Shown here piece after piece: positions 39,224 through 56,383 of a DNA stretch of 64,000 nt (positions are counted from its first letter, which is position 1; each line of letters opens with the position of its first letter). A model generated the notes under the pieces. It was not told where the DNA came from and made no database searches. It saw only the letters and a list, made by a program, of their open reading frames with translations. The DNA is from Bacillota bacterium (GTDB lineage Bacteria > Bacillota > Clostridia > Christensenellales > WQRI01). The position numbers and the translations under genes were made by a program. The DNA is taken from contig WQRI01000001.1 in assembly GCA_009786825.1 (NCBI GenBank), forward strand, positions 15,266 to 79,265, in the 5' to 3' direction.

Positions 39224-39237
39224 AGTTTTATTTTTTG

Positions 39238-39394
39238 AATGTACAAATTACAATGTACAATGTACAAATGTTTCACCGCTAGCGCGGGCAATATTTTGCG
39301 TTTGCAAATGCTCTAAAAATCATAACGCAGACTGTTCAAACGCTTTGCAATTAACGAATTTAACATTTGTAATTTGTACACTGTAATTTGTAAT
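39238..39394. repeat. intergenic hairpin element, TGTACAAATTACAA flavour, canonical core
   Basis: AATGTACAAATTACAATGTACAATGTACAAAT - GTTTCACCGCTAGCGCGGGCAATATT ... GACTGTTCAAACGCTTTGCA - ACATTTGTAATTTGTACACTGTAATTTGTAATTT. Confidence 0.85.
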
Positions 39395-39398: not shown

Positions 39399-41150
39399 CT
39401 AGTTCTCTTGTGAGTTTACTATCTCTCTATACACGCTACAACTCTGAAGTAATTGCTCGTTCGTGCCTTGTGAGACTATTTGCCCTTCTTCTAGTACTAT
39501 AATGTTATCTGCTTCTTTTATTGTGGATACGCGCTGGGCTACTATTATTGTGATTGCTTCTTTGCCCGCCTCTCTCTTTGTGGTTTCTGTTTTTAAGTTT
39601 GCGCGTACTTGGGCGTCTGTTGTGTAGTCTAGCGCCGAGAAAGTGTCGTCAAACAAGTATATGCTGGGGCTTCCTACAACTGCGCGCGCTATGCTTAGCC
39701 TTTGCTTTTGCCCACCGCTAAAGTTTTTGCCGCCTTGCGCAACCGGTGCATCTAAGCCTTTTTCTAGCGCGAACTCTGCACTAGCAACATCTAGCGCGTG
39801 TAAAATTTCGCTCTCCGATGCATCTGCCTTACCTACTAAAATGTTGCTTACTATATCACCCTTAAACAGCATTGCTTTTTGAGATGTATAGCCAATTTGG
39901 CTTCTGTAGTCTTTCACGTTAAACTCGCGTATGTTTGTGCCACTTACGCTTATGCTTCCGCTGTCTATATTGTAAAAGCGCATAAGTATATTTGCTAGGG
40001 TTGTTTTTCCGCTTCCGGTCGGACCAATTATTGCTGTGGTTTGCCCCGCGTGCGCGCTAAAACTTATATCTCTAAGGGCTGGTTTGCTTGCGCGCGGATA
40101 TGTAAACGTAACATTTTCAAACACAAGCGTGCCACCGCATAACTCGCCCCGCCCTAAAGGCTTACCGCCGTTGTCGTTAATTTCTGGCTGTATTTTTAAA
40201 ATCTCGTTTATTCTGTTTGCGCTGGCTTGAGAGCGCGGCCATTGTATAAACAGCATAGTGAACATCATAAACGCGAACATAATCTGCATAGAGTACTGGA
40301 ACACGGCGAATACGCGCGCTAGTTCTGCGCGTGAGATTGTCTCGCCCGCATCTACTTGACCTTGTGTTGTGTGCGCCGTTAAAAATATAATGCCTAGTTG
40401 CATTCCAAACATCACAAGCATTGCGACGGGGTTTGTTATGCTGGCTATTCTGTTAACCCTAAGGGTTGTGCGCGTTAGGTTTACGTTGCTCTCGTGAAAG
40501 CGCTGTTGCTCTCTGGCTTGTCTGTTAAAGGCGCGTGTTACGCGTACGCCCGTAAGCCCTTCGCGCGCGACAAGTGTCAGTTTATCTAAGCGCTTTTGAA
40601 TGCGGTTGTACATCGGGAATACCACAAACATAACTGCCGCAACAATCAGTAGCATTATGCCTAGCGCGCCACCTATAACTAGCATATAGTCGCCGCCAAA
40701 CTCGCTTGCGTATATTATACCAAAAACAAAGGTGATAGGGGCGGAAGCCATTGTTGTAAACATCAGCACAAAAAACTGTTGCACTTGCTGAACATCGTTT
40801 GTTGTGCGCGTAATTAGGCTTGCCGTGCCTACTTCATCAAACTCTTTTAGCGAAAAACCCTCTACTTTTTCGAAAACCCTTTTGCGTAAGTTTCTAGAAA
40901 AGCCCACCGCCATTCTAGAAGCAAAAAACGCAACAAACACATTCGCAACAATCGCGCCAAACGCAAGCCCAAACATCCACCCGCCGCGCTCTATAATTTG
41001 CGCAACGCTCTCGTATTCTGTTGCGCCTATTGTTGCCGCCATTCTGCGCGGAAGTTCTAAGTCTAGAAGTGCCGCCGCCGCAACGAAAATAAGTGTCAGC
41101 AACGCTAACACTATTAAACGCGGGGTGAAGATTTTTAAAAGTTTGAACAT
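39399..41150 (-). CDS. ABC exporter, fused permease/ATPase (heterodimer partner 1)
   Basis: Walker A GPTGSGKTT, signature FSGGQKQ, Walker B IYLFDDTFS (a degenerate D instead of E, typical of heterodimeric exporters). Confidence 0.88.
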   Translation of the reverse strand: MFKLLKIFTPRLIVLALLTLIFVAAAALLDLELPRRMAATIGATEYESVAQIIERGGWMFGLAFGAIVANVFVAFFASRMAVGFSRNLRKRVFEKVEGFSLKEFDEVGTASLITRTTNDVQQVQQFFVLMFTTMASAPITFVFGIIYASEFGGDYMLVIGGALGIMLLIVAAVMFVVFPMYNRIQKRLDKLTLVAREGLTGVRVTRAFNRQAREQQRFHESNVNLTRTTLRVNRIASITNPVAMLVMFGMQLGIIFLTAHTTQGQVDAGETISRAELARVFAVFQYSMQIMFAFMMFTMLFIQWPRSQASANRINEILKIQPEINDNGGKPLGRGELCGGTLVFENVTFTYPRASKPALRDISFSAHAGQTTAIIGPTGSGKTTLANILMRFYNIDSGSISVSGTNIREFNVKDYRSQIGYTSQKAMLFKGDIVSNILVGKADASESEILHALDVASAEFALEKGLDAPVAQGGKNFSGGQKQRLSIARAVVGSPSIYLFDDTFSALDYTTDAQVRANLKTETTKREAGKEAITIIVAQRVSTIKEADNIIVLEEGQIVSQGTNEQLLQSCSVYREIVNSQEN

Positions 41151-41216: not shown

Positions 41217-41435
41217 GTTTTGGTCTACTTTATGTAGTTTTGGTTTCACGTGATTGCTTTTGGTTTCCTTAAATAATTTGATTTCTCTTAATTTTATCAC
41301 ATAACCCGCCGTAAGTCAATAATTTGACACTAAAATAATATGCCAAATTGCTTGACTAAATTGTGAAAATATTGTAAACTATTATGTAGGGGGTATACAA
41401 ATTTTTTCGCCTGCCATACTGTCAATGCTCTTGCA

Positions 41436-41618
41436 TTTAAAGCCCTAGATGCAAGAAAGCCACTCGCCTTTTGACGCTTTTGCTACGCAAAAGGCTAAAA
41501 CCTTACGGTTTACGGCTCGTCGGAAAGGTGCGCATTTGCGAAGGGCGCGTACTAGGCGTACGCAACTGAGCAAAGCGTAAACCTTGACGCAGTATTGCGC
41601 AGCATATAGGGCTTTAAA
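41436..41618. ncRNA. structured about 180-nt element, copy 1 (candidate ncRNA, leader or MITE)
   Basis: Closing inverted repeat TTTAAAGCCCTA...TAGGGCTTTAAA. Internal hairpins are GCCTTTT..AAAAGGC, AAACC-TTAC-GGTTT, GCGTAC..GTACGC and CGCA-GTAT-TGCG. It is homologous to 47374-47553. Confidence 0.45.
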
Positions 41619-41622
41619 TGTT

Positions 41623-42366
41623 ATGTTTATTGATTTAATAATTGTCGCGGTAATTATTTTGAGCGCTCTGGTTGGTTTTGCCAGAGGTTTTTTGCCTTCC
41701 ATTATGTCTCTTTTTGGGTGGGCTGCTTCTTTAATTATTGCTGTTTGGCTTGGTGGTAGATTTATAGATTTACTAGATAGTTTTTTTGATGTTAGAGAAA
41801 TGGTTTCTGAGGCTTTTATCACGCGTCTTGAGAGTATGAACCCCACGCTTTTTGCACAGCCACCAACAGAAGAAAACATTATTCAGGGGCTTTACGAGTT
41901 TGGGCTACCGGGCTTTATAAATAACTTGCTTGTGCCGGTTTTGTACCCGGGCGACCCGACTGTTGATATAGCGCTATCTCACTTGTTAGGACCAGCACTA
42001 GCAAACATTGTTTTGCGCGTTTTAAGTATGCTTATTTTGTTTACGCTTTTAAGTGTTTTAACCACCCTTTTAAATATGGGCGTAAACAGTTTATTACTAG
42101 ACAGAGATGGCGAGCGCAAAACGCTTGGGCAAGTAGACCGCGCCGTTGGCGTGCTGTTTGGTATTGGGCGCGGAATTGTTATGGTTGTTGCGGGCTTCTT
42201 TATACTAATAATAGCGCTATCTCTTCCGTTTGGTGCCGAGTTCGGTCATAACATAGAGCCGTCTCTAGACCAATCGTTCATCGCCCGCCACGTACTCTAC
42301 AACCTATACGACCAAATAATACAAATGCTAGACCTAGAAAATATTCTTACCAATGTTCAATTTTAG
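41623..42366 (+). CDS. cvpA: CvpA-family membrane protein
   Basis: MFIDLIIVAVIILSALVGFARGFLPSIMSLFGWAASLIIAVWLG is a typical CvpA N-terminus. Start moved to the internal Met. Confidence 0.75.
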   Translation: MFIDLIIVAVIILSALVGFARGFLPSIMSLFGWAASLIIAVWLGGRFIDLLDSFFDVREMVSEAFITRLESMNPTLFAQPPTEENIIQGLYEFGLPGFINNLLVPVLYPGDPTVDIALSHLLGPALANIVLRVLSMLILFTLLSVLTTLLNMGVNSLLLDRDGERKTLGQVDRAVGVLFGIGRGIVMVVAGFFILIIALSLPFGAEFGHNIEPSLDQSFIARHVLYNLYDQIIQMLDLENILTNVQF

Positions 42367-42497
42367 AATGGTAAATGTTAAATTGTTTCACCGCTAGCGC
42401 TGGCAATTTGATTGAAGTTGGAAAACGCAGACTGTTCAAAGGCAATATATATAATTGTGCTTCGCCATTAAAAATTTAAAATTTACCATTAAACATT
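42367..42497. repeat. intergenic hairpin element, TAAATGTTAAAT flavour, canonical core
   Basis: AATGGTAAATGTTAAATT - GTTTCACCGCTAGCGCTGGCAATTTG ... GACTGTTCAAAGGC - CCATTAAAAATTTAAAATTTACCATTAAACATT. Confidence 0.8.
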
Positions 42498-42525
42498 AAA
42501 AAAAGTGGCAATGCCACTTTTTTTA
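42498..42525. terminator. bidirectional terminator between cvpA and potD
   Basis: AAAAAAGTGGC-AAT-GCCACTTTTTT. Confidence 0.75.
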
Positions 42526-44013
42526 GTTTGCGTTTCGCCTGCGTCTTATGGCTAGTAGGATTAGGGCTGCGGCTATTAGGGTTATTGCGCTGGTGGTTAC
42601 TGCGAGCCATACGATGTCCATTGTGTTTAGCCCGCTCTCGCCCCCGCCCCTTGCTACGTTCCACACGTGCAGAACAAGGGCGTCTTGTGCTGGTGTGAAG
42701 TCTGCTAGTATTGCGAATGCTTCGTAGTGTGGCGCTCTGTGCGGAAAGAAAACATAGTTGCTATAAAACTCTGGGTCTGCTAAAGAAATTGGCTGACCCG
42801 CCGCATTTGTCTCACCAAAGATGTTTGGTATGCTGTGTACCAAAAAGTAAGTCAGATAGTCGTAAATCTCTTGCCCCAAATATTCTACTGTGTAAAACTT
42901 TGGGTCTACTGTTGTTGTGTAAAAGTGTGTAAGTATATTAGATGCCGCAGCCCACGGGTTGAACATCCAATTTATAAATTTATGCGCCGCATCTACATTT
43001 CTTGCGTTTTGCGGAATAACAAACATATCCATCCAAAAGTTAGCGCCCTCTGGTGGCAGAAAATAATATAAGTCTGGGTTTTGGAACATCGCAAAAACTG
43101 CTTGCCCACTCCACTCCATATTCATAATAATCTCGTTAGCAACCATTGCGTGCGTGTCTGTATCTACACCAAAGCGCGGGTTTTGAGAATCTGCCCCGCT
43201 TCCTAAAAGCCTATTAAAAGCCGCTTGAACCGCTTGCAAGTTTTCTGGCGAAGTACTATTATAAAAGTAGGTTGCTTTTGCCCCGCGCTCTATTTGGTCT
43301 GGTATTGCCAAAAGTGCATCTCTATTTGCATACAGCGCACCAACGCCAAACGCAAGGCGAAAACTGTCTTTAACCGCAATTTGTCCCCTAAGGCGCGAGT
43401 CCCACAGTATGCCCCAACCCTCTCTTTCTTTCCACTCTTGCAGTTGCAAATCTGTATAGCCTAGCCTTTCTTGCAAAAGTCTTCTGTTAAACATTATGCC
43501 CGTTGTGCCTTGTGTGTACGGCACGGCAAACCTATTTTGCGGGTTCCAATCTTCGAAATGCCCTAGCGGGTTGCCGTTATGCTGTATTATATAGTTTGTT
43601 ACGTTTGGCAACAAGTCGTAATTTAACTCGACTAGATGCCCTTCGCGCGCAAGCCTACTTGCCATATAATCAGATGGCACAAAAACATCGAAGTCTGTGC
43701 GCTGGTGAACAAGCAAGTTATACGCCGCCTCGTTTGTCTCGAATGTAGAAATTTCTACGCGAAGCCCGTAGTTTTCTTCAAACGCTTGAACTGTTGCAAT
43801 ACATAAATATCCCGTCCAGTTTAACACGCGCAAAATATTGTCGCGCGAAGCACAACCCGACAAAGAAAATGTAAACACAAAACTGCTTGCCACTAAAGCA
43901 AGTGATAATAGCGTAACCTTTATTTTTGTAAACAACCCCTTATTTGCCACTAGGGTTGTGCTTAAACTTTGTGTAATTGTTTGGGACGACCCGCCCCCAT
44001 TAGATTTAATCAT
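42523..44013 (-). CDS. potD: spermidine/putrescine ABC transporter substrate-binding lipoprotein with an extra C-terminal TM anchor
   Basis: Lipobox FSLSGC|ASRD and a PotD-like body. The C-terminus IVWLAVTTSAITLIAAALILLAIRRRRNAN is a TM helix plus a basic stop-transfer sequence. Confidence 0.8.
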   Translation of the reverse strand: MIKSNGGGSSQTITQSLSTTLVANKGLFTKIKVTLLSLALVASSFVFTFSLSGCASRDNILRVLNWTGYLCIATVQAFEENYGLRVEISTFETNEAAYNLLVHQRTDFDVFVPSDYMASRLAREGHLVELNYDLLPNVTNYIIQHNGNPLGHFEDWNPQNRFAVPYTQGTTGIMFNRRLLQERLGYTDLQLQEWKEREGWGILWDSRLRGQIAVKDSFRLAFGVGALYANRDALLAIPDQIERGAKATYFYNSTSPENLQAVQAAFNRLLGSGADSQNPRFGVDTDTHAMVANEIIMNMEWSGQAVFAMFQNPDLYYFLPPEGANFWMDMFVIPQNARNVDAAHKFINWMFNPWAAASNILTHFYTTTVDPKFYTVEYLGQEIYDYLTYFLVHSIPNIFGETNAAGQPISLADPEFYSNYVFFPHRAPHYEAFAILADFTPAQDALVLHVWNVARGGGESGLNTMDIVWLAVTTSAITLIAAALILLAIRRRRNAN

Positions 44014-44034
44014 TTTATCTGCCCCCGCCTTATT

Positions 44035-44916
44035 TTAAGTTTTTTTGAACTTGCTACGTGCAAGCCTGTTTTGCGCAAGTGTACCGATAGCAATTATGCT
44101 TATTGCGCCTACAAACATTACTGTTGCTAAAGCCCTGATAGCGCCCATAGTCTCGGCGTTACCAAATCGCGCCGCCGAATAGATGTATAGGGATAGCGTC
44201 TCTACAACCCCGCTGTTAAACCTTGTTATTAAAAAGTCGTCTAAACTAAGCGTGATAGACAGAACAAACGCCCCTAGCATTGCCGGAAAAATCTCAGGTA
44301 TAATTACTCGCCTTAATGCGTGAAATGGGCTTGCCCCTAAGTCTAGCGCGGCCTCGTAATTGTTTGGGTTTATTCGCCTAAGTCGCGGTAAAATGTTTAA
44401 AACTACAAACGGCGTGCATAACGCTACGTGACCTATAATTATTGTTACAAACCCAAAGGCAAAGTTATGTGGCAGAATTAAGTCGCCAAGTGGCATAAAC
44501 GCAACAGTAAAAAATAAGAATAGCCCCATTGCCGTTACTACTTCTGGGTTAACTACATTTATTTGGTTACCAAAAAGCATAACTCTTTTTGGGTTTCTGT
44601 TCATATAGAAAATACCTATTGCGCCAAGCGTGCCTAGTATGGTTGCTATTGTTGCTGATGTTAGTGTGATTATAAGTGTATTTCTTAGCGCGCGCCTAAG
44701 GGTTGGGTCGTTAAACATAAAGCGGTAGTTATCAAAAGTGAAGTTGCCGTCCATACCCATAAACCTAACGTCCATAAAACTGAAAAAGACCATATAAAAT
44801 ATTGGCGCGTACAATATTAAAAGCACAAGGGCAAGATAACTGCGCGCTAAAACTTTTTTAGGTGAGACTTTTTTAAACCACTCTGAGATAGCGGTTGTGC
44901 GTGTTTTTGTATCCAT
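44035..44916 (-). CDS. potC: spermidine/putrescine ABC transporter permease
   Basis: BPD-transporter permease with an EAA-like loop (EAALDLGASPFHALRRVIIPE). Named by operon position. Confidence 0.75.
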   Translation of the reverse strand: MDTKTRTTAISEWFKKVSPKKVLARSYLALVLLILYAPIFYMVFFSFMDVRFMGMDGNFTFDNYRFMFNDPTLRRALRNTLIITLTSATIATILGTLGAIGIFYMNRNPKRVMLFGNQINVVNPEVVTAMGLFLFFTVAFMPLGDLILPHNFAFGFVTIIIGHVALCTPFVVLNILPRLRRINPNNYEAALDLGASPFHALRRVIIPEIFPAMLGAFVLSITLSLDDFLITRFNSGVVETLSLYIYSAARFGNAETMGAIRALATVMFVGAISIIAIGTLAQNRLARSKFKKT

Positions 44917-45686
44917 TATATACTTGCCCCCCTACCTGTTTTTTCTTCTTTGCTTAGCAGTAAACTAACAAACACAAGCATAAATAATACAAGCGACAGC
45001 GCCGCGCCCACATTGTGTTGCCTGCCCTCGAAGTAGTTAAATATCAAGTCGCCCAAAAGCCTTACTCGCCCAGAACTTAGTATATCTGATATTACAAAAG
45101 TAGATATTGCCGGCGTTAGAACCATAACTGTACCCGCCATAATTCCCGGCACAGACATCGGCACTATTACCCTTGTAAAAGTTTGCATATTGGTTGCACC
45201 CAAATCTGAAGACGCCTCTTGCAAACTATAGTCCATACGCATAAGGCTAGAGTAAATCGGAAAAATCATAAACGGCAAAAAGTTATAAACAAGCCCGAAC
45301 AATACCGCAAAGTACGAAAACTCTAACAGCCCAAAGTTTTGAAGTAACTCTCGCGTTGCAATTGTGCGCAGTAAAAAGTGTACCCACATCGGCACTAAAA
45401 ACAAAATTATAAGCACGCTTATTTTGTTGTACTTTCTGTTGCTTAAAATGTATGCAACGGGGTAGCCTATAAGTAAGCAAATGGCCGTTGCGCTTATGCC
45501 CATACCAACAGAGCGAAGTATTGCAGAGCGGCGATACTGCTCTGTGAATAGCCCTGTCACGTTCTCTAAAGTGAAGTTTCCGTCTGCATTTGTAAAGGCG
45601 TAGAATATAATCAGCAATATCGGCATTAAAACAAATATCACCATAAACACAGCATACGGAATTCCAAAATGTTTGCGTTTAATCAA
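44916..45686 (-). CDS. potB: spermidine/putrescine ABC transporter permease
   Basis: Permease with QEASSDLGATNMQTFTRVIVP. Its start and stop overlap the neighbouring genes. Confidence 0.75.
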   Translation of the reverse strand: MIKRKHFGIPYAVFMVIFVLMPILLIIFYAFTNADGNFTLENVTGLFTEQYRRSAILRSVGMGISATAICLLIGYPVAYILSNRKYNKISVLIILFLVPMWVHFLLRTIATRELLQNFGLLEFSYFAVLFGLVYNFLPFMIFPIYSSLMRMDYSLQEASSDLGATNMQTFTRVIVPMSVPGIMAGTVMVLTPAISTFVISDILSSGRVRLLGDLIFNYFEGRQHNVGAALSLVLFMLVFVSLLLSKEEKTGRGASI

Positions 45687-47325
45687 CCTTTTCTACCTCC
45701 TCCAACTTCAAAACCATTTTGCTTGGCACAAGCACTAAGCCTACCCTATCGCCATCATCGTAACTGTAGTTTGTGCTTACAAAAAACTCGTAGCCCTTAT
45801 CTGCTTTTACGCGCGCTTGATAGTGCGTACCCTTATAAAACGATGTTATCACCGTGCCTTTAATGTCGCCCTCACTCTCGTTATCTTTAAGTTCTATATC
45901 GCCAAACGCCATAGTAACCTCTACATTTTTGCCGTAAAGGTCTAACTCGTTTGCGATTCTCTCGCCCGCCGCGTTTACTAAATAACCGCTATCGTCATAA
46001 GCCGAGTTTTCTATAAGGGCTGTTAGGTCTACCTTTATTTTTGCGCCCTGAAGTAGAATAGCATCGTCATCTATAATTTTGCCCTTAATTACGTTAGCCT
46101 CTTTTTCTTTTTCCATTATGTGTATGTAGTCGGGCTTTATGTATAAGTTTACATTCTCGCCAACGCTATAGCCCGTAGTAGACTGCACCAAAAAGCCAAC
46201 GCCGTTAGCCTCTACTTCCATCTCGTAATGAACACCCTTAAACAAACTGCTTACTACTAGTCCTTGCAGAGTGTTATCACCTGCCGGCTTATCTTTTGCT
46301 GGTCGACTGTCGCCGTTTACAAATAGTTCTATATCCTCTGGTCTTATAACTACATCTACCCTTTCATTCTTGTCGAAGCCATAGTCTATGCACGTAAAAG
46401 TTTTGCCCGCAAACGTAACTTTATAGTCGGCTTCCATAACACCACTTATGATGTTACTCTCGCCAATAAAGTTTGCAACAAAGCCATTCTCTGGCTCATC
46501 GTAAATTTGCTTTGGCGTACCTACTTGCAGTATCTTGCCCATATTCATAACTACGATTCTGTCAGACATTGTAAGTGCTTCTTCTTGGTCGTGCGTTACG
46601 TATATGAAAGTTATGCCCAATTCTTTATGCATTTGGCGCAGTTCTAATTGCATCTCTTGTCTGAGTTTCAAGTCTAAAGCCCCTAGTGGCTCATCTAGCA
46701 GTAAAACGGCTGGCTCGTTAACAATTGCCCTAGCAATTGCTATGCGCTGTTGCTGACCGCCCGACAAACTTTCTATGTGCCTTTTTGCAAAGTCTGGTAA
46801 GTCTACAAGTTTAAGCGCTTTTTGCACTTTTTCATCTATCTCTTCTTTTCGAAGTTTGCGCATAACGGGAATTGTGTTGCCGTTTGCATCTAACACCGGC
46901 TCGTAAGAGATAACCTTTTGCTTTGCGCCCGTACTCTCACACACCACAACTTCAACCTTTTTCTTTTCTTTAATGCCCTCTACGCGCTTTAGTTTTAACC
47001 CGAATGCGATGTTGTTTTCTACATTCATATGCGGAAAAAGAGCGTACTTTTGGAACACTGTATTAAGCGGGCGCTTGTTTGGCGGCAGTTTAGAAATATC
47101 CTCGCCGTTAAGTAAAATCTCGCCACTTGTAATATTTTCAAAGCCCGCAAGCATTCTAAGCGTGGTGGTTTTACCGCACCCGCTCGGACCAAGCAGAGTA
47201 ACAAACTCGCCCCGCTTAACTTGCAGGCTAAAGTCTTCTACTGCTAAAGATGTGCCATACTGTTTGGTCACACCCTTAAACTCAATTAAAATTTCTTTCT
47301 TTAAATTATCTTTATTATTTTCCAT
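45679..47325 (-). CDS. potA: spermidine/putrescine ABC transporter ATPase, enlarged (NBD insertion and duplicated TOBE-like C-terminus)
   Basis: GPSGCGKTT, LSGGQQQR and LLLDEPLGALD. There is an insert of roughly 45 aa (VEGIKEKKKVEVVVCESTGAKQKVISYEPVLDANGNTIPVMRKL). Two C-terminal repeats are FKGVHYEMEVEANG and YKGTHYQARVKADKG. Confidence 0.85.
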   Translation of the reverse strand: MENNKDNLKKEILIEFKGVTKQYGTSLAVEDFSLQVKRGEFVTLLGPSGCGKTTTLRMLAGFENITSGEILLNGEDISKLPPNKRPLNTVFQKYALFPHMNVENNIAFGLKLKRVEGIKEKKKVEVVVCESTGAKQKVISYEPVLDANGNTIPVMRKLRKEEIDEKVQKALKLVDLPDFAKRHIESLSGGQQQRIAIARAIVNEPAVLLLDEPLGALDLKLRQEMQLELRQMHKELGITFIYVTHDQEEALTMSDRIVVMNMGKILQVGTPKQIYDEPENGFVANFIGESNIISGVMEADYKVTFAGKTFTCIDYGFDKNERVDVVIRPEDIELFVNGDSRPAKDKPAGDNTLQGLVVSSLFKGVHYEMEVEANGVGFLVQSTTGYSVGENVNLYIKPDYIHIMEKEKEANVIKGKIIDDDAILLQGAKIKVDLTALIENSAYDDSGYLVNAAGERIANELDLYGKNVEVTMAFGDIELKDNESEGDIKGTVITSFYKGTHYQARVKADKGYEFFVSTNYSYDDGDRVGLVLVPSKMVLKLEEVEKVD

Positions 47326-47373
47326 AAATTCCTTTATATAGTTGAGAGTTGAGTCCCCCCCTTTTTTTTATTT

Positions 47374-47553
47374 TTAAGCGCTAGGTGCAAGCAAGCCACC
47401 TCGCCTTTTGGCGCTTTTGCTTCGCAAAAGGCTACCGCCTTTGGCGGACGGCTCGGTCGGCGAACGGCGGATTTTCAAGGGAGCGTACTCTGTGTACGTG
47501 ACCGCAGAAAACCGTAACGTTCAACGCAGTATTGCGCAGTACATAGCGCTTAA
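47374..47553. ncRNA. structured about 180-nt element, copy 2
   Basis: Closing inverted repeat TTAAGCGCTA...TAGCGCTTAA. The hairpin order matches copy 1, with compensatory changes (CCGCC-TTTG-GCGG replaces AAACC-TTAC-GGTTT). It lies 50 nt upstream of the potA ATG. Confidence 0.45.
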
Positions 47554-48080
47554 AAATTTGGTGGCGTTGATATCCATAATATTCTCGCCTCAGTATCCAG
47601 CAAGTTTTCTAGAAAGTGTGTTTTGTCTGCCTTAAAATAAAAACTGTCTCCTGCATCTAATTTATATTTTCGCTTGCCTACTACAAGCCTTATTTTGCCT
47701 TGAAGCACATAGCCGAATTCTTCCCCCTCGTGTGGCAAATCTTGCGTTGATATTGCCCCCGCTTTTAGTGTAAAAAGTATTGGCTCTAGTTGGTTTTTTT
47801 GAGCGGACGGGACGAGCCACGCGGTTGTAGAATTCTCTTCTTCTTTTATGTAGTGGTCGCGCCTATGAAATACAATGCTGTCTACTTCATCAGAGAAAAA
47901 GTCTTTCAAGTTTGTTCCTAAAACTTCTAGCATATTAGATAGCGCCGGAACAGTCAAATTAACAATATCGTTCTCAACTTGCGATATAAAGCCCTTAGAA
48001 TACTCTAAACGGCTCGCTAACTCTTCTTGAGTTAGTCCAGCCACCAACCTTAAACTCTTAATTTTCTCACCTATAAGCAT
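47550..48080 (-). CDS. XRE-family HTH plus cupin-domain transcriptional regulator
   Basis: N-terminal IKSLRLVAGLTQEELASRLEYSKGFISQVEN. C-terminal cupin HEGEEFGYVLQG...GDSFYF. Confidence 0.8.
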   Translation of the reverse strand: MLIGEKIKSLRLVAGLTQEELASRLEYSKGFISQVENDIVNLTVPALSNMLEVLGTNLKDFFSDEVDSIVFHRRDHYIKEEENSTTAWLVPSAQKNQLEPILFTLKAGAISTQDLPHEGEEFGYVLQGKIRLVVGKRKYKLDAGDSFYFKADKTHFLENLLDTEARILWISTPPNF

Positions 48081-48633: not shown

Positions 48634-48771
48634 TAGTGTAAAGTGTAGAGTGGTTAAACTCATTAAATACAAAGCGTTTGAACGGCTCAAAAAAAGTTCT
48701 GGTTAATTTTGCCCGCGCTAGCGGTGTAAACACTTTACACTTTACACTTTACACTCTACACTTTACACTCT
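48634..48771. repeat. intergenic hairpin element, GTAAAGTGTAAAG flavour, canonical core (inverted)
   Basis: TTAGTGTAAAGTGTAGAGTGG ... GCGTTTGAACGGC ... TTTTGCCCGCGCTAGCGGTGTAAAC - ACTTTACACTTTACACTTTACACTCTACACTTTACACTC. Confidence 0.85.
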
Positions 48772-49124: not shown

Positions 49125-50630
49125 CCTTTTAAGGCTTTCATCTTTGCCTAAAACTTCTGCTAACTCTAGCGCTCCGCCGGCTGATGCTTCTTTGCTTGAT
49201 AGGGCTAGCCTAAGAGTCGAATATACTTGCCCCGCCTTGTACACTACGCCTTGTGCTTCGACTTCTGCGCCCCCCTTTATGTCCATTTTTGAGCCTTTAT
49301 TCGCACTTGTAAGTGGTTTTAATGCCTCGCCTAAGTTTTGCGCCGTAAAGCCTTTAGCATCTGTTTTGCTAAGTAGTGGTAGCGCTTTTTGTATAATGTC
49401 TTTTGCAATACCAGGCGTAGTTTTCATCTTTTCGTTTTTAAAAAGGTTTGTATCAAACGCGCCAAACTCTTCTATAAAATTTATTAAGGTTGGAATATCC
49501 GCAAGGGTATCCAGCCTTTTTTGTAGTATTGCGGGTAGCGCTTTTTTGTTGTAAACCCCTTTGCTTAGTTTAGCGTAAGGCTTAGATTTTTCTAAAAATG
49601 GTTGTGCAATTTTTAAAAAGTCACTCTCACTCAACTCTTTTATATAAAGCGAATTTAGCCATTTAAGTTTGTCTGCATCAAAAATTGATGGCGACTTAGA
49701 AAGCCCTTTTAAACTAAACAGCGCTTGCAACTCGGCAAAACTTAGTTTCTCTTTATTGTCTTTTGGCGACCAGCCAAGTAGCGCTACGTAGTTTATAATC
49801 GCGTCCTTTAAATAGCCCGCCGCTATAAAGTCTTCAAATGTGGCTGCGCCGTCTCTCTTAGATAACTTCTTGCGCTCGTCTTTCATTATGGGCTGCAGGT
49901 GTATATACGTTGGTCGCTTCCACTTAAACGCATCGTATAGCAAGTTAAATTTTGGTGTAGAACTTAAGTACTCAACGCCCCGAATAACGTGCGTTACGCT
50001 CATTAGGTGGTCGTCTACCACGTTAGCAAAATTGTATGTGGGGAAGCCATCTGCCTTAAGCATAACCCCATCTTCAATCTCGTGCTTTGGCACAGACACC
50101 TTGCCAAATAGCAAATCGTCGTACTCTGAGGCTATGCCATCTTGCACAACATTTTGCCTTATAACATACGGCTCGCCCGTACTAACTTTGTCCTTAGCGC
50201 CCGAGATGTCTAGCCCTAAACAATGCTTGTCGTACTTTGCAAAGGGGTCTGATTTTTTAAGTGCTTCTATTCTGTCTTTGGTGCAAAAGCAAAAATAAGC
50301 CCCGCCAAGCTCTACTAATTTGTGGGCGTACTCTTTATATATGTGCGTGCGTTTGCTTTGCACGTATGGTCCGCGCTTGCCTTTTTCTACAAGTTTGCCG
50401 CTCGACAAAAACAAGCCTTCGTGGTATAATATGCCCGCGTCCCCTAATGCCTTAACAATGGCTTCAGTCGCCCCTTCAACTTCTCTAGTTTGGTCTGTGT
50501 CTTCTATCCGTAATATAAACACCCCACCGTTTTGCTGAGCAAATAAAGAGCCATAAAGGGCTGTTCTTAAATGCCCAATATGCAAATAGCCCGTTGGTGA
50601 GGGCGCAAACCTTGTTGTGATTTTTTCCAT
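49095..50630 (-). CDS. gltX: glutamate--tRNA ligase
   Basis: RFAPSPTGYLHIGHLRTAL (HIGH motif) and KLSKRDG (KMSKS motif). The 3' end overlaps yabQ convergently by 30 nt. Confidence 0.93.
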   Translation of the reverse strand: MEKITTRFAPSPTGYLHIGHLRTALYGSLFAQQNGGVFILRIEDTDQTREVEGATEAIVKALGDAGILYHEGLFLSSGKLVEKGKRGPYVQSKRTHIYKEYAHKLVELGGAYFCFCTKDRIEALKKSDPFAKYDKHCLGLDISGAKDKVSTGEPYVIRQNVVQDGIASEYDDLLFGKVSVPKHEIEDGVMLKADGFPTYNFANVVDDHLMSVTHVIRGVEYLSSTPKFNLLYDAFKWKRPTYIHLQPIMKDERKKLSKRDGAATFEDFIAAGYLKDAIINYVALLGWSPKDNKEKLSFAELQALFSLKGLSKSPSIFDADKLKWLNSLYIKELSESDFLKIAQPFLEKSKPYAKLSKGVYNKKALPAILQKRLDTLADIPTLINFIEEFGAFDTNLFKNEKMKTTPGIAKDIIQKALPLLSKTDAKGFTAQNLGEALKPLTSANKGSKMDIKGGAEVEAQGVVYKAGQVYSTLRLALSSKEASAGGALELAEVLGKDESLKRLEFTLGLLT

Positions 50631-50759
50631 TTTTTTCTCTGTTTTTCGTGTACGTAAACGAATGCTTTACGCTCTATTTAATTTTTTTGTTATTTTTAGT
50701 CTTTTTGCAACATTTGTGATTTGTACATTGTAATTTGTAATTTAAACTAGCCTAGCGCT

Positions 50760-51536
50760 TTAAGCATTAACCTTAGCATCTGACCGCGCCCTTAATTTTT
50801 GCGGTAGCACAATCATAACCAGCACACCTAAAACCGGCACAAGCATAAACACAAAGTATAGTATTGCCGTTTTAGCAAATGGGTGTACATCGTGTATAAA
50901 TGGCAAGTTAAGCGGGAAGTCTAAAAACCTTGCAAAGTCTGCATTAAGCAAATGAGCCATTACTGCCGATATAAGCAGTAGGGAAGCGTAAATTATAAAC
51001 ACCCACTTTATGTCTCTGTTGTTTGGCGCGTACGGCTTAAGCGCAATTGCTAGCATAAAAAACAGCACTTTTATAAGGTGATAGATTGTGGTGTGGTGGT
51101 TGTAAAAAGAGCCTTGCGCGGTGAATATGTACGTGAACGAATCGGCAACAATTGCAACGGGCGCAACATAAAGCGCAAGCCCCGCAACAAACTGAATACT
51201 TAAAGAAGAGGCAAAGCCAATTTGCGATACGCGGCTATCAGGCTTTGCAAATGTGGCTAGCGCAAATGTAAGCATTGCGTAACTTGATATATGAAAGGGC
51301 AGGTGGCGCAAGTTAAAGTCTGAGCCGTAAATTATAAGTAGTCTGCTGATTTTGATAATCTCAAAAATTATCATAAAAATTGTGATAATCAAAAATGGCA
51401 GGTTGCGCATTCGCCCTTTTTTATTAGAAAAGCCCTTGTAACACGCAAGCGTTATTACAAGAAAAACGATTGTAAAAGTAAACAGCCAAAGCACATCGTA
51501 AGCCGAGTGCGCTATTGTAACACCACGATTTTCCAT
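50760..51536 (-). CDS. multi-pass membrane protein (YwaF/TIGR02206-like guess)
   Basis: Seven or eight hydrophobic helices and an LPFHISS motif. Start moved to MENRGV. Confidence 0.45.
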   Translation of the reverse strand: MENRGVTIAHSAYDVLWLFTFTIVFLVITLACYKGFSNKKGRMRNLPFLIITIFMIIFEIIKISRLLIIYGSDFNLRHLPFHISSYAMLTFALATFAKPDSRVSQIGFASSLSIQFVAGLALYVAPVAIVADSFTYIFTAQGSFYNHHTTIYHLIKVLFFMLAIALKPYAPNNRDIKWVFIIYASLLLISAVMAHLLNADFARFLDFPLNLPFIHDVHPFAKTAILYFVFMLVPVLGVLVMIVLPQKLRARSDAKVNA

Positions 51537-51728
51537 TGCCCTACAATTATAACAAAAACCGCACAACTTGTAAAGCGTTTTTAAGGCAATAAGGCAAGTA
51601 GGGGTATGGGGGTAAAGGTGTAGGTGGCTAAAAAGGGGCAAGCGTTTTTGTGTTTGGTCGGTTGGGTGCTTGGTTGGTTGGGTGCTTGGTAGCGCGCTTG
51701 TTTAAAAATCCCACCGCTACGGCTGCCA

Positions 51729-51748
51729 ATAGTTATTATGATAACTAT
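51729..51748. promoter_or_regulatory. 20-bp palindrome ATAGTTAT-N4-ATAACTAT upstream of parB
   Basis: ATAGTTATTATGATAACTAT. The same half-sites occur at 53146-53165. Confidence 0.4.
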
Positions 51749-51815
51749 CAGCGTGGGTTTGCAAAATTTTTGGTTTTTAGTTGCTTTTGTACCTGTTTTG
51801 TGCTACAATAAATTT

Positions 51816-52898
51816 ATGAGTAAAAACAGAGGATTGGGCAGGGGGCTAGGTAGCCTTTTTGCCAACACACAAGAAGAATACGAAACACAACTAGAGCAGG
51901 CGAGAGACGACCTATCAAGTGACACGCTTGCTACTATAACTGGGGTATCTCAAACTAAGTCCGGGGGCAATAATAAGGCTAAGTCTAAGGCAGGTACGGG
52001 GGCAGGCGCAAATAATTTGGCTAGCCACTCAAACACCGCAAGTGGTACTACACCCTTAGCATCGGCACACCAAAATGTTTCACGTGAAACATTGGCTGGT
52101 GGCACTAATAATACAAGCGGGGTACAGCAAATATCGCTAAGTTTAATACGCGCAAACAAAAATCAGCCACGCAAAACCTTTAATGATGAGAGGCTGGAAG
52201 AGTTAGCATCATCTATAAAAACTCACGGCGTTATCCAACCCATTTTAGTGCAAAAGAAAGGCGCGGGCTTTGAGATTATAGCGGGTGAGCGACGCTTTAG
52301 GGCTGCGCAATTAACAGAACTAGACTATATCCCTGTAATTGTGCAAAACCTAGAGGCTCAAAGCGCAAAGGAAGTTGCGCTTATAGAAAACCTACAGCGC
52401 GAAGACCTTAACGCTATAGATTCAGCCCTTGCAATACAGTCGCTAATGCAAGAGTTTAGCCTAACACAAGAGACAATCGCAAAAAGAATAGGCAAATCGC
52501 GCCCGGCAGTCGCAAACTTGCTTAGGCTTTTGGGTTTGCCCAAGTTTGTAATGCAGTCGGTTAGAGACGGCACTTTGTCGGCTGGTCACGCAAGAAGCCT
52601 TGCATCTATTTCTGACAGCCAAGCGCAAGTGCGCCTTGCAAAAAAGGCAATAGAGGGCGAGTGGTCTGTGCGCGCGCTAGAGCAAGCGGTTAAAAATTAT
52701 CTAGAGCCGAAGCCAAAAACAAAGGACACGCTAAAACCACCAAAGTCTAAAGAACTTGCAAACCTTGTAAACAACCTAAAGCGCACGCTCTCAACAAAAG
52801 TCTATGCGCTAGGCACAGAAAATAAAGGCAAAATAATAATTGAATACTACAGCACAGACGACCTTGAGAGAATAGAGCAGTTTATGACTGGTAAGTAG
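51816..52898 (+). CDS. parB: chromosome partitioning protein ParB/Spo0J with an N-terminal low-complexity insertion
   Basis: MSKNRGLGRGLGSLF, the QPRK..FNDERLEELASSIKTHGVIQPILV box, GERRFRAA and an HTH (LTQETIAKRIGKSRPAVANLLRLL). The candidate promoter TTGCTT-17-TACAAT ends 6 nt before the ATG. Confidence 0.9.
   Translation: MSKNRGLGRGLGSLFANTQEEYETQLEQARDDLSSDTLATITGVSQTKSGGNNKAKSKAGTGAGANNLASHSNTASGTTPLASAHQNVSRETLAGGTNNTSGVQQISLSLIRANKNQPRKTFNDERLEELASSIKTHGVIQPILVQKKGAGFEIIAGERRFRAAQLTELDYIPVIVQNLEAQSAKEVALIENLQREDLNAIDSALAIQSLMQEFSLTQETIAKRIGKSRPAVANLLRLLGLPKFVMQSVRDGTLSAGHARSLASISDSQAQVRLAKKAIEGEWSVRALEQAVKNYLEPKPKTKDTLKPPKSKELANLVNNLKRTLSTKVYALGTENKGKIIIEYYSTDDLERIEQFMTGK
52076..52091. 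promoter_or_regulatory. parS site (perfect) inside parB
   Basis: TGTTTCACGTGAAACA matches the Firmicute parS consensus TGTTNCACGTGAAACA. Confidence 0.85.
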
Positions 52899-52940
52899 GT
52901 CTGCTCGCACTAACTCAAAGCCTGCTCGCGCCAACTCGCA

Positions 52941-52963
52941 AAGAAGCCCGAAAGGGCTTTTTT
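52941..52963 (+). terminator. rho-independent terminator of parB
   Basis: AAGAAGCCCG-AAA-GGGCTTTTTTT. Confidence 0.75.
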
Positions 52964-52979
52964 TGTTTCACGTGAAACA
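52964..52979. promoter_or_regulatory. parS site (perfect) immediately downstream of parB
   Basis: TGTTTCACGTGAAACA. Confidence 0.85.
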
Positions 52980-52985
52980 ATGTTT

Positions 52986-53142
52986 GATTTTAAATGTTAA
53001 ATTTTAAATGTTAAATGGCTGCACCGCTAGCGCGGGCAAAGTTTATCTGCAAGTTATTAAAAGGCGCAACTACAAACCGTTCAACACCAAATGAAATAAT
53101 GAGTTTAACCATTTAACATTTAAAATTTAGCATTCAACATTT
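52986..53142. repeat. intergenic hairpin element, TAAATGTTAAAT flavour, canonical core
   Basis: GATTTTAAATGTTAAATTTTAAATGTTAAATGG - CTGCACCGCTAGCGCGGGCAAAGTTT ... ACCGTTCAAC - CCATTTAACATTTAAAATTTAGCATTCAACATTT. Confidence 0.85.
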
Positions 53143-53170
53143 GCAATAGTTATCACAATAACTATTGCAA
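53141..53170. promoter_or_regulatory. 30-bp perfect palindrome just upstream of the tRNA promoter
   Basis: TTGCAATAGTTAT-CACA-ATAACTATTGCAA. Confidence 0.45.
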
Positions 53171-53185
53171 ATTGCACCAAAATAC

Positions 53186-53214: not shown

Positions 53215-53284
53215 TATAAAGTTACAGTTTGAAAAGCAAAGTTTGGGCGCGCCAAATTTTCTGTAACAAAAATGGTTGGGACAC

Positions 53285-56165: not shown

Positions 56166-56383
56166 GTATTCAGTAGGTTTGATGGATTGAATGCACATAA
56201 TTTTCTCTCGGTTGCCCTTACAAAACTATATGCAACGAATTTCGGCTACGCTTCGCTTCGCAAGGAAATTCTTTTGCATATAGTTTCGTACACAGGAGTT
56301 ACACCCGCTTCGCGATAAAAAAAAATTCGAAAATTATATGTATTCAATCCCTTCAGACACCAAAGGTACATCTACCCGAATAC
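56166..56383. repeat. about 220-bp nested imperfect palindrome
   Basis: GGATTGAATGCACATAATTTTC pairs with GAAAATTATATGTATTCAATCC. AAACTATATGCAACGAATTTC pairs with GAAATTCTTTTGCATATAGTTT. The central loop is GGCTACGCTTCGCTTCGCAAG. Confidence 0.7.

What the first reader, a model, noticed from the sequence alone, without database searches (positions are those of the whole stretch)
41436..47553. Two copies of an about 180-nt multi-hairpin element with compensatory stem changes, both upstream of ABC-transporter operons
Copy 1 (41436-41618) and copy 2 (47374-47553) share the order closing stem, hairpin 1, hairpin 2, hairpin 3, hairpin 4.
- Hairpin 1 is GCCTTTTG.CGCTTTTGCT.CGCAAAAGGC.
- Hairpin 3 is GCGTAC...GTACG.
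- The 3' block is CAACGCAGTATTGCGCAG.
- The closing stem differs but stays complementary: TTTAAAGCCCTA/TAGGGCTTTAAA vs TTAAGCGCTA/TAGCGCTTAA.
- Hairpin 2 also differs but stays complementary: AAACC-TTAC-GGTTT vs CCGCC-TTTG-GCGG.

That is covariation, as expected for a functional RNA or DNA structure. Read on the minus strand, both lie upstream of transporter operons: 50 nt before potA, and in the divergent region upstream of the ABC exporter pair. Copy 1 also abuts the cvpA start on the plus strand.
Basis: seen in the sequence. Interest (0 to 1): 0.6.

Follow-up and report, generated by a model that had tools for sequence, protein, structure and literature searches.

The report
Structured mobile repeat, not a riboswitch
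The two look-alike 180-nt hairpin clusters are real, but they belong to a small family of non-coding, transposon-like repeats scattered through one uncultured Bacillota genome, not a dedicated control element for transporter genes. The unusual part is how strictly their folded shape has been kept while the sequence changed.

Summary
Copy 1 (41436-41618) and copy 2 (47372-47555) share about 80% identity and one multi-helix fold.

I found two more copies in the same genome:
- a 183-nt copy between an ABC ATPase gene and a permease gene (L024);
- a 128-nt copy lacking hairpins 1-2, between a signal-peptidase gene and degV, 2.7 kb beyond the window end.

Across the four copies, 18 of 60 base pairs carry compensated double changes and 98% of pair cells still pair. 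Slid controls give 0-4. Stem positions diverge as fast as unpaired ones.

The rest of the evidence points to a MITE-like mobile repeat:
- Homology stops exactly at terminal inverted repeats that end in TTAA or TTAG.
- Three copies begin inside the upstream gene's stop codon.
- The nearest relative has the same regulator (ending PPNF-TAA) only 23 bp from potA, with no element.
- Short-read contigs break inside copies.
- There is a long and a short form.
- Nothing matches in Rfam, phages, plasmids or other genomes.

The transporter-leader reading fails. Copy 4 is not next to a transporter, the exporter's best promoter lies between copy 1 and that gene, and orthologous loci lack the element.

Closest analogues are bcr1 (Bacillus cereus) and Correia/RUP elements. 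No transposase was found, and the target duplication (TA or TTAA) is ambiguous. Interest is modest.

The parts
41436..41618 (+). Copy 1, long form (183 nt), in the divergent region between the ABC exporter gene and cvpA
   Evidence: Sequence. Covariance model score 208.5 bits. RNA fold -71.7 kcal/mol, z -4.7.
41437..41452 (+). Copy 1, 5' arm of the closing stem / terminal inverted repeat (TTAAAGCCCTA.ATGC)
   Evidence: Pairs with 41602-41617 in the folds.
41602..41617 (+). Copy 1, 3' arm of the closing stem / terminal inverted repeat. It contains AGGG, a possible Shine-Dalgarno sequence for cvpA.
   Evidence: The Shine-Dalgarno reading is inference from the sequence.
41466..41495 (+). Copy 1, hairpin 1. 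It is invariant in the three long copies and contains two alternative 5' partners (GCCTTTTG or CGCTTTTGC) for GCAAAAGGC.
   Evidence: The two copies fold it differently.
41498..41511 (+). Copy 1, hairpin 2 (AAACC-TTAC-GGTTT). Three of its five pairs are compensated in copy 2.
41525..41585 (+). Copy 1, long central hairpin with the conserved apex GCGTAC-N5-GTACGC. Most of the covariation lies here.
   Evidence: helices 6-8: 9 pairs with double changes.
41588..41599 (+). Copy 1, hairpin 4 (CGCA-GTAT-TGCG), inside the conserved 3' block
   Evidence: It is broken (A.A) in copy 4.
47372..47555 (+). Copy 2, long form (core 47374-47553), between the stop codon of the HTH-cupin regulator gene and potA
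   Evidence: Covariance model score 207.9 bits. RNA fold -80.6 kcal/mol, z -5.2.
47403..47432 (+). Copy 2, hairpin 1
47435..47447 (+). Copy 2, hairpin 2 (CCGCC-TTT-GGCGG)
47462..47522 (+). Copy 2, long central hairpin
47525..47536 (+). Copy 2, hairpin 4
47550..48080 (-). HTH-cupin regulator gene. Its TAA stop (47550-47552) lies inside the terminal TTAA of copy 2.
   Evidence: The orthologue in L025 ends with the same PPNF-TAA.
45679..47325 (-). potA, the first gene of potABCD, 48 nt downstream of copy 2 in the direction of transcription
41623..42366 (+). cvpA, whose called start is 5 nt after copy 1
39399..41150 (-). ABC exporter gene, divergent from cvpA, 286 nt from copy 1
41291..41319 (-). 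Best promoter-like site for the exporter (TTGACT-17-TAAAAT, TG-extended, 10 of 12 matches). It lies between copy 1 and the exporter gene.
   Evidence: a consensus match only.
41352..41380 (+). Promoter-like site (TTGACT-17-TAAACT) upstream of copy 1. It would place copy 1 in the cvpA 5' UTR.
   Evidence: a consensus match only.
56219..56290 (-). A 72-nt palindrome whose arms (CTATATGCAA.../...TTGCATATAG) resemble the family's subterminal motifs. It is a doubtful miniature relative and is not counted as a copy.
   Evidence: Covariance model scores of 18-20 bits, no better than the reverse-strand self-hits.

Best explanation
This is a lineage-specific family of small, non-coding, non-autonomous mobile repeats (MITE-like) in an uncultured spore-forming Bacillota genome.

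**Anatomy.** Each copy is bounded by an 11-15 bp terminal inverted repeat ending in T-T-A-R. A long form (about 183 nt) has a closing stem, hairpin 1, hairpin 2, a long central hairpin and hairpin 4. A short form (about 128 nt) lacks hairpins 1 and 2.

**Insertion.** Copies inserted at TA/TTAA sites in intergenic DNA. Three of four sit on the stop codon of the upstream gene. They are then carried passively in neighbouring transcripts: copy 1 probably as + strand RNA in the cvpA leader, copies 2-4 as the complementary RNA between co-directional genes.

**Fold.** The interior keeps its multi-helix single-stranded fold through compensated substitutions while the primary sequence drifts at the same rate as unpaired positions. 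So the fold, not the stem sequence, is under selection. The most likely reason is that propagation by a trans-acting enzyme, or tolerance inside operon mRNAs, depends on it.

**Shown:** the repeat family, its boundaries, its dispersal, the covariation, and its absence from the orthologous locus of the nearest relative.

**Inferred:** mobility itself, the TA/TTAA target duplication, the trans-acting enzyme, and the level (RNA or ssDNA) at which the fold is selected.

It is not a ligand-sensing leader of transporter operons.
For: 1. **Four copies in about 97 kb of one genome, in four unrelated contexts.** Window copies 1 and 2; L024/L034 between an ABC ATPase gene and an ABC-2 permease gene; L028 17927-18056 between an S26 peptidase gene and degV. 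Protein accessions come from one NCBI MAG.
2. **Sharp boundaries.** Homology ends exactly at the inverted termini, and the flanks are unrelated.
3. **Consistent termini.** All termini end TTAA (copies 1-3) or TTAG/CTAA (copy 4). The stop codons of the HTH-cupin gene, the ABC ATPase gene and the peptidase gene lie inside the terminus.
4. **Empty site.** In L025 the orthologous regulator (53% identity, aligned end to end, same C-terminus PPNF, same TTT TAA) is followed by potA after 23 bp, against 224 bp in the window. The covariance model finds nothing in L025 or L026.
5. **Long and short forms**, and the L024 copy is a mosaic of a copy-2-like 5' end and a copy-1-like remainder.
6. **Assembly breaks.** Three of three short-read Logan contigs break inside a copy.
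7. **No internal signals or coding.** No promoter or terminator inside the element, no conserved reading frame, no Rfam match.
8. **Repeat-rich genome.** The genome also holds a second, more abundant palindromic repeat family.
9. **Precedent.** bcr1 of the Bacillus cereus group is about 155 bp, MITE-like and transcribed, with compensatory changes that keep its RNA structure (PMC3184786). bcr1-3 often sit in UTRs or inside operons (PMC3446304).
Against: - No transposase, reverse transcriptase or HUH enzyme was found in the window or in about 33 kb of extra DNA. No autonomous element with matching ends was seen.
- The outermost bases of the termini differ among copies (TTTAAAGCC, TTAAGCG, CTTAGGGG). 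That is unusual for transposase-bound inverted repeats.
- The TTAA is palindromic, so a target duplication cannot be told from part of the inverted repeat. In copy 4 the flanks are inverted (TTAG/CTAA), which leaves at most TA as a duplication.
- The only empty site is in a distant relative (53% protein identity). All strain-level contigs are identical, so recent movement is not shown.
- Only four copies are known.
- Three of four copies are next to ABC-transporter genes.
- All four copies have the same orientation relative to the prevailing direction of transcription and replication. Pure random insertion does not predict either of the last two points, although neither is statistically significant at this sample size.
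Confidence: 0.62

Rival explanations
1. Mobile in origin but exapted. Once inside an operon transcript, the stable multi-helix RNA acts in cis as an mRNA stabiliser, a processing site, or a device that uncouples expression of the upstream and downstream genes. Selection for that role keeps the fold. This overlaps with the best explanation and differs only in why the fold is kept.
For: - Copies 2-4 lie between co-directional genes and must be co-transcribed.
- In the nearest relative, regulator and potA are 23 bp apart, so they form one operon.
- The folds are very stable, -62 to -82 kcal/mol.
- The upstream stop codon lies in the closing stem, so terminating ribosomes would open it (the consequence is inference).
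- For cvpA, a possible Shine-Dalgarno sequence (AGGG) lies in the 3' arm of the closing stem.
- bcr3 presence correlates with mRNA decay rate in Bacillus cereus (PMC3446304).
Against: - Copy 1 would be transcribed as the opposite strand from copies 2-4.
- G.U pairs occur only on the model-sense strand (8 cells at 4 positions, against 0 A.C cells). In copies 2-4 that strand is not the mRNA strand.
- There are no expression data.
Confidence: 0.2
2. One reading: a cis-regulatory leader, riboswitch-like, that controls ABC-transporter operons when read on the minus strand.
For: - Three of four copies are adjacent to ABC-transporter genes.
- Covariation is strong.
- Hairpin 1 offers two mutually exclusive pairings, like a switch.
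Against: - Copy 4 is between a signal-peptidase gene and degV.
- The transporters involved are functionally unrelated: a polyamine importer, a multidrug-type exporter and an ABC-2 exporter.
- Copy 3 lies between the ATPase and permease genes, not in a leader.
- The exporter's best promoter lies downstream of copy 1 relative to that gene.
- The element is absent from the orthologous potA loci.
- There is no terminator and no RBS sequestration at potA.
- The sharp inverted-repeat boundaries and stop-codon insertions are not features of riboswitches.
- No Rfam match.
Confidence: 0.04
3. A multi-copy family of independently transcribed small RNA genes, made from the model-sense strand and antisense to the flanking genes in copies 2-4.
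For: - The G.U asymmetry favours the model-sense strand.
- That strand has 2 broken pairs against 7 on the other strand in the three-copy consensus folds.
- All four copies share one orientation relative to neighbouring genes.
Against: - No conserved promoter upstream and no terminator downstream. Homology stops at the closing stem, and the promoter scan finds nothing at copy 2.
- Folding energies do not consistently favour one strand.
- The asymmetry rests on only 4 pair positions.
Confidence: 0.07
4. The complementarity is kept by DNA-level mechanics of palindromes, namely intrastrand template switching or gene conversion that copies one arm from the other. No selection on any function would then be needed.
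For: - 94.6% of pairs are Watson-Crick and only 3.6% are G.U.
- About 12 of 21 compensated changes are transversion-type, which cannot pass through a G.U intermediate (counted by me).
- Stems diverge as fast as loops.
- The fold is equally convincing with DNA parameters.
Against: - Template-switch correction is known for simple quasi-palindromes. It would have to act independently on five separate helices, including a closing stem whose arms are 150 nt apart.
- Internal loops and bulges are conserved rather than being corrected to perfect palindromes.
Confidence: 0.07

Closest known systems
bcr1 (and bcr2/bcr3) repeats of the Bacillus cereus group
   Same: - Firmicute host and a size of about 155 bp.
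- Non-coding, dispersed in intergenic regions, with the properties of a non-autonomous mobile element.
- Often part of UTRs or operon spacers.
- Compensatory base changes maintain a cruciform-like RNA structure (PMC3184786, PMC3446304).
   Different: - No sequence relationship is known; I did not align them.
- bcr1 is flanked by 5-bp direct repeats. Here the flank is a palindromic TTAA/TA.
- This element has a branched 4-5 helix fold, not a mainly single-stem cruciform.
- It belongs to a different, uncultured lineage.
Correia elements (CREE) of Neisseria
   Same: - Small inverted-repeat elements with long (about 157 bp) and internally deleted short (about 104 bp) forms (sizes from PMC3184786).
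- Insertion at TA, co-transcription with neighbouring genes, and stable transcript hairpins (from my own knowledge of the Correia literature).
   Different: - Correia termini are well conserved 26-bp repeats and carry promoter elements and an IHF site.
- Here the outermost termini vary, and no promoter-like sites lie inside the element.
- The host is a proteobacterium.
RUP and BOX elements of Streptococcus pneumoniae
   Same: - Firmicute MITE-like or modular repeats with predicted stable secondary structures.
- They are transcribed and sometimes extend or disrupt gene ends (PMC3184786).
- The optional hairpin 1-2 module seen here resembles the modular make-up of BOX.
   Different: - RUP is 107 bp with classic conserved inverted repeats, linked to an IS630-family element (the link is from my own knowledge).
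- No cognate IS has been identified here.
REPIN/REP elements mobilised by RAYT (IS200/IS605-like HUH) transposases
   Same: - Structure rather than sequence is preserved.
- Single-stranded hairpins are the recognised form.
- There is an orientation bias.
   Different: - REPs are 20-40 bp palindromes tagged by GTAG or CGTC (PMC3733652).
- No such tag, no RAYT gene and no paired-REP architecture are seen here.
- This element is a 130-180 nt branched structure with inverted termini.
Riboswitches and other cis-regulatory leader RNAs
   Same: Multi-helix fold with strong covariation, located in non-coding DNA next to genes.
   Different: - No conserved position or orientation relative to one class of genes.
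- Absent at orthologous loci.
- Bounded by inverted repeats at TTAA.
- No expression platform and no Rfam match.

Membership tests
Bacterial MITE (miniature inverted-repeat transposable element) | Small (under about 400 bp) and without coding capacity | tested here: met
   Size is 128-184 nt. Stops occur in most frames, and the one open frame in copy 1 is not conserved because of indels. The overlapping 144-aa ORF has no Pfam hit.
Bacterial MITE (miniature inverted-repeat transposable element) | Terminal inverted repeats | tested here: met
   An 11-15 bp closing stem in every copy. However, the outermost 7-9 bp differ among copies while the inner CTAGRTGC/GCAYATAG part is conserved.
Bacterial MITE (miniature inverted-repeat transposable element) | Flanking target-site duplication (direct repeat) | tested here: inconclusive
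   TTAA lies at both ends of copies 1-3 and at the empty site in L025. TTAA is a palindrome, so it fits equally well as part of the inverted repeat. Copy 4 has TTAG...CTAA, so only TA could be a direct repeat there.
Bacterial MITE (miniature inverted-repeat transposable element) | Several dispersed copies in unrelated contexts | tested here: met
   Four copies in about 97 kb, with four different flanking gene pairs. Short-read contigs break inside copies.
Bacterial MITE (miniature inverted-repeat transposable element) | Presence/absence polymorphism between related genomes | tested here: inconclusive
   Absent at the orthologous regulator-potA junction of the nearest relative, but that relative is only 53% identical in protein. 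All strain-level contigs carry the copies unchanged.
Bacterial MITE (miniature inverted-repeat transposable element) | A cognate autonomous IS with matching ends, or demonstrated mobilisation in trans | not testable with these tools
   No transposase in the DNA held. The full MAG could not be scanned, and the species is absent from the genome collection.
Riboswitch / cis-regulatory leader of ABC-transporter operons | Constant position and orientation in the 5' UTR of functionally related genes | tested here: not met
   Copy 4 lies between a peptidase gene and degV. Copy 3 lies between the ATPase and permease genes. Copy 1 lies behind the exporter's best promoter and abuts cvpA on the other strand.
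Riboswitch / cis-regulatory leader of ABC-transporter operons | Conserved at orthologous loci in other species | tested here: not met
   L025 and L026 (PotA 53% and 51% identical) lack it. There are no hits elsewhere in the genome, metagenome or viral collections apart from the same genome.
Riboswitch / cis-regulatory leader of ABC-transporter operons | An expression platform (terminator or RBS sequestration) coupled to the fold | tested here: not met
   No terminator-like site in or after the copies, and the potA RBS lies about 40 nt outside the element. Only for cvpA could the closing stem cover a possible Shine-Dalgarno sequence (inference).
Any described RNA family (Rfam 15) | A covariance-model match | tested here: not met
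   No hit at gathering score. Within the two copies, no hit even at E up to 10, apart from one that overlaps copy 2 by chance (BcKCsr2, 12 bits against a cut-off of 40).
IS200/IS605-derived elements (PATE) and REP/REPIN | No terminal inverted repeats; subterminal hairpins; insertion 3' of a fixed tetra- or pentanucleotide; a GTAG/CGTC tag for REPs; a Y1 HUH transposase in the genome | tested here: not met
   Clear inverted termini are present, and there is no GTAG/CGTC tag at the hairpin foot. No Y1 transposase in the DNA held. The whole genome was not testable.
Retron non-coding RNA (msr-msd) | An adjacent reverse transcriptase gene, with a1/a2 repeats flanking msr-msd | tested here: not met
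   The architecture is superficially similar (closing stem, short hairpins, one long hairpin). However, no reverse transcriptase lies next to any of the four copies.

The most novel reading that the evidence does not exclude
The element is a structure-dependent mobile element: a non-autonomous transposon or retro-element whose whole branched single-stranded fold, not a fixed terminal sequence, is what its trans-acting enzyme recognises.

That would be analogous in principle to REPIN/RAYT or SINE-like systems, but with a 130-180 nt multi-helix substrate. It would explain four things together:
- the outermost termini vary yet stay complementary;
- stems drift at the neutral rate but remain paired;
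- G.U pairs occur on one strand only;
- all four copies share one orientation relative to replication and transcription.
Probability: 0.2. Interest if true: 0.6.

Novelty: new member of a known kind. Interest (0 to 1): 0.3.

Why it matters
- **A practical caution for genome scans.** Strong covariation in a two-copy comparison does not by itself indicate a riboswitch or regulator. Mobile repeats can show it too. Here the deciding evidence was the boundaries, the insertion sites and the orthologous loci.
- **A tractable case for an open question.** The family preserves a branched fold almost perfectly (98% of pair cells) while its stems diverge as fast as its loops. That bears on what selects for structure in bacterial MITE-like repeats: the transposition machinery, mRNA-level effects, or DNA mechanics.
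- **Effects on specific genes.** Copy 2 pushes a regulator and potA about 200 nt apart with a structure of about -70 to -80 kcal/mol. Copy 1 places the cvpA start against a closing stem. Either could alter expression of those genes.

Tried and rejected
1. **Rfam.** Gathering-score scan of the window and permissive scans of both copies found nothing relevant.
2. **Phage and plasmid blastn** (distant mode) found no match.
3. **Genome-contig scan** with the hairpin-1 core gave 20 hits, all chance palindromes in unrelated taxa. The source species is evidently not among the representative genomes.
4. **Metagenome-contig scan** with the 3' block gave a single hit, L024, which is the third copy.
5. 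**Three viral-contig scans** gave nothing or chance matches.
6. **Six-frame pseudo-protein.** I searched the element's concatenated frame translations against 5.8 billion proteins, hoping for spurious ORF calls across other copies. There were no hits.
7. **Second empty-site test** through the ABC-2 permease of L024. That protein has no homologue other than itself.
8. **Strain-level presence/absence** at the copy 1 and copy 2 sites. All contigs are identical.
9. **Pre-existing palindromic target.** I tested whether the variable outer stem is a palindrome the element inserted into. No empty palindromes of those types exist in about 100 kb, and there is none at the L025 site.
10. **Retron, IS200/IS605, REP and sRNA-gene readings.** All were rejected on missing defining features (see the membership tests).
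11. **The 72-nt palindrome at 56219-56290.** It scores no better than the reverse-strand self-hits, so I did not count it.
12. **Sample identifiers** were not found in the paper library.

Full report

Yes. Copy 1 (window 41436-41618) and copy 2 (core 47374-47553; pairing extends to 47372-47555) align over their whole length at about 77-83% identity. Their ends are nearly identical and the middle is more diverged. The hairpin-1 block occurs exactly twice in the window, against 0.00 expected. Both copies fold far better than dinucleotide shuffles. As RNA, z is -4.7 and -5.2 on the + strand and -5.4 and -2.9 on the - strand. With DNA parameters, z is -5.1 and -4.6. The gene context is as described.

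**2. More copies**

No Rfam family matches, and nothing similar exists in the phage, plasmid or viral collections. The genome-collection scan returned only chance palindromes.

The metagenome scan found a third copy, L024 690-872. It is 89% identical to copy 1 and sits in an unrelated context, between an ABC ATPase gene and an ABC-2 permease gene. Protein accessions show that L024 and the window belong to one NCBI MAG labelled Firmicutes/Bacillota bacterium. The genome encodes YabP/YabQ and GerA, so the organism is a spore former.

A covariance model built from three copies found a fourth copy 2.7 kb beyond the window end, at L028 17927-18056 (window-equivalent about 66744-66873). It is only 126-130 nt long because hairpins 1 and 2 are missing. 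Its termini are different but still complementary (GAACTTAGGGGCTA/TAGCCCCTAAGTTC). It lies between an S26 signal-peptidase gene and degV.

Unfiltered searches of all DNA held from this genome (about 97 kb), with models built from three and from four copies, found no further members. All three short-read Logan contigs that reach a copy break inside it, as expected for a repeat.

**3. Covariation**

With three copies, 14 of 60 predicted pairs show changes on both sides and 98.9% of cells are paired. With four copies, aligned to the model, 18 of 60 pairs show such changes and 98.2% of cells are paired. Sliding the 3' partner by 1-3 columns gives 0-4 such pairs and 26-41% pairing. None of 500 column shuffles reaches the observed values. 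The four-copy alignment is fitted to the model, which favours the structure, but the three-copy MAFFT alignment gives the same picture.

Paired columns have diverged as much as unpaired ones, for example 0.23 against 0.20 between copies 1 and 2. So the stems are not conserved in sequence; they are kept complementary. By my count, about 12 of 21 compensated events are transversion-type. 94.6% of pairs are Watson-Crick. G.U occurs in 8 cells at 4 pair positions, and no A.C cell occurs. That is a weak asymmetry favouring the strand shown as + in the window. Folding energies do not consistently favour either strand.

Two exceptions matter. Hairpin 4 is broken (A.A) in copy 4.

**4. Marks of a mobile repeat**

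- Homology ends precisely at the inverted termini.
- All termini end in TTAA (copies 1-3) or TTAG/CTAA (copy 4).
- In copies 2, 3 and 4 the stop codon of the upstream gene lies inside the terminus. Copy 1 abuts the cvpA start.
- The nearest relative available, L025, has PotA 53% identical. Its HTH-cupin regulator is also 53% identical, aligns end to end and has the same C-terminus ...PPNF. In L025 the sequence reads TTT TAA and is followed by potA after 23 bp. In the window the same TTT TAA is followed by the element, a second TTAA, and then 44 nt to potA, a 224-bp spacer.
- This fits insertion at a TTAA (or TA) with duplication. Because TTAA is a palindrome, and copy 4 has inverted TTAG/CTAA, only TA can be claimed as a possible direct repeat.
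- The family has a long form and an internally deleted short form. Extra 5'-end fragments lie next to copy 4, at L028 18057-18125.
- The genome also carries a second, more abundant palindromic repeat family.

**5. Why it is not a transporter leader**

- Copy 4 is not next to a transporter.
- The three transporters near copies 1-3 are functionally unrelated.
- Copy 3 is inside an operon, not in a leader.
- The best promoter-like site for the ABC exporter (10 of 12 matches, TG-extended) lies between copy 1 and the exporter gene. A + strand site upstream of copy 1 would put it in the cvpA leader. Copy 1 would then be transcribed as the opposite strand from copies 2-4.
- No terminator-like or promoter-like sites lie within the copies.
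- The potA ribosome-binding site is outside the element.
- Related potA loci lack the element.

**6. Unexplained regularities**

Gene orientation switches from - to + at about 51.7 kb, together with the GC skew and next to parB. This suggests a replication origin. Copies 1 and 2 (left of it, + orientation) and copy 4 (right of it, - orientation) therefore share one orientation relative to replication and the prevailing direction of transcription. The L024 copy is likewise antisense to its flanking genes. Four of four is suggestive (p = 0.125 for all four agreeing), not significant. Three of four copies are adjacent to ABC genes, which is also unproven as a bias. The orientation would fit either selection within mRNAs or a replication-coupled single-strand mechanism.

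**7. Mechanism**

Best supported (confidence about 0.6): a non-autonomous, MITE-like mobile repeat whose branched single-stranded fold is under selection. It inserted at TA/TTAA sites that often coincide with stop codons, and it is carried passively in neighbouring transcripts.

- Shown: the family, its boundaries, its dispersal, the covariation, and its absence at the orthologous locus.
- Inferred: mobility, the duplication, the enzyme, and whether RNA or ssDNA is the selected form.

No transposase, reverse transcriptase or HUH gene occurs in the DNA available.

Rivals are an exapted RNA-level role in operons (about 0.2, and not exclusive of the best explanation), an antisense sRNA family (0.07), DNA-level palindrome correction without selection (0.07), and the transporter riboswitch (0.04).

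**8. Comparison with known systems**

It works most like bcr1 of the Bacillus cereus group: about 155 bp, MITE-like, transcribed, with compensatory changes preserving structure (PMC3184786), and often found in UTRs or operon spacers (PMC3446304). It also resembles Correia, RUP and BOX elements, which have long and short or modular forms and stable transcript hairpins (PMC3184786).

It meets the MITE criteria of size, non-coding nature, inverted termini and dispersal. The target duplication and polymorphism criteria are inconclusive, and the cognate IS could not be tested. It fails the defining features of riboswitches, REP/REPIN, IS200/IS605 derivatives and retrons.

**9. Verdict**

This is a new member of a known kind, a structured MITE-like repeat confined, as far as the searches reach, to one uncultured Bacillota lineage. 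Interest is modest (0.3). The most novel reading not excluded is a mobile element recognised through its fold, at probability about 0.2.

Noticed in passing
window 3451-3495, 7479-7529, 10343-10437, 15814-15990, 18176-18314, 19865-20023, 23032-23192, 25487-25549, 39233-39392, 42348-42506, 48705-48753, 52981-53150; also L024 1884-2045: A second, more abundant repeat family of about 150 nt. AT-rich arms built of AAATGTTAAAT-like short repeats lie in inverted orientation around a GC-rich core (GTTTCACCGCTAGCGCGGGCAAT...). Copies lie in intergenic spacers, for example between the convergent cvpA and potD ends. It is probably another MITE-like or terminator-like family.
   Followed up: partly
L028 18057-18125 (window-equivalent about 66874-66942, beyond the window end): Next to copy 4 there are extra fragments of the family's 5' end. 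GAACTTAGGGGCTAGGTGCA occurs twice, 34 nt apart, and a further TAGGTGCAAGCCCCC piece is present. This suggests nested or abortive insertions at one spot.
   Followed up: partly
window 56219-56290: A 72-nt palindrome between convergent genes. Its arms (CTATATGCAA / TTGCATATAG) resemble the family's subterminal motifs. The covariance model scores it at only 18-20 bits, so membership is doubtful.
   Followed up: partly
window 26785-26922 and 28172-28309, flanking 26961-28061: Two 138-nt direct repeats (91% identical) flank a gene for a YhcG/DUF1016 PDDEXK-nuclease protein. This may be a small inserted cassette.
   Followed up: no
window about 50000-53600: A probable replication origin region. Gene orientation switches from - to + near 51.7 kb, the GC skew changes sign, and parB (51738-52898) and two tRNA genes (53285-53358, 53500-53573) lie nearby.
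   Followed up: partly
window 28364-33760: A 1798-aa ORF with no Pfam match contains internal repeats of about 1.15-1.2 kb (repeat families D7, D10, D15, D20).
   Followed up: no
window 61318-64000 (runs off the end): A large Glu/Lys-rich protein with 30-nt periodic repeats (GAAAAAGAAAAGGCAGAAAGAGAG...). The gene caller gives 886 aa with no Pfam match.
   Followed up: no
window about 7400-14000: A tandem series of about a dozen small paralogous ORFs (110-150 aa, no Pfam match) with conserved 5' regions (repeat family D14).
   Followed up: no
window 13256-13385 and 50642-50705: A 64-nt repeat (TTTTTCGTGTACGTAAACGAATGCCTTACG...) in three copies, two in tandem and one 37 kb away. It was not examined.
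   Followed up: no
window 45679-47325: PotA here is 548 aa and its closest relatives are about 500 aa. From general knowledge, typical PotA proteins are about 370 aa. The nearest homologue outside this genome is only 53% identical, which shows how isolated this lineage is.
   Followed up: no
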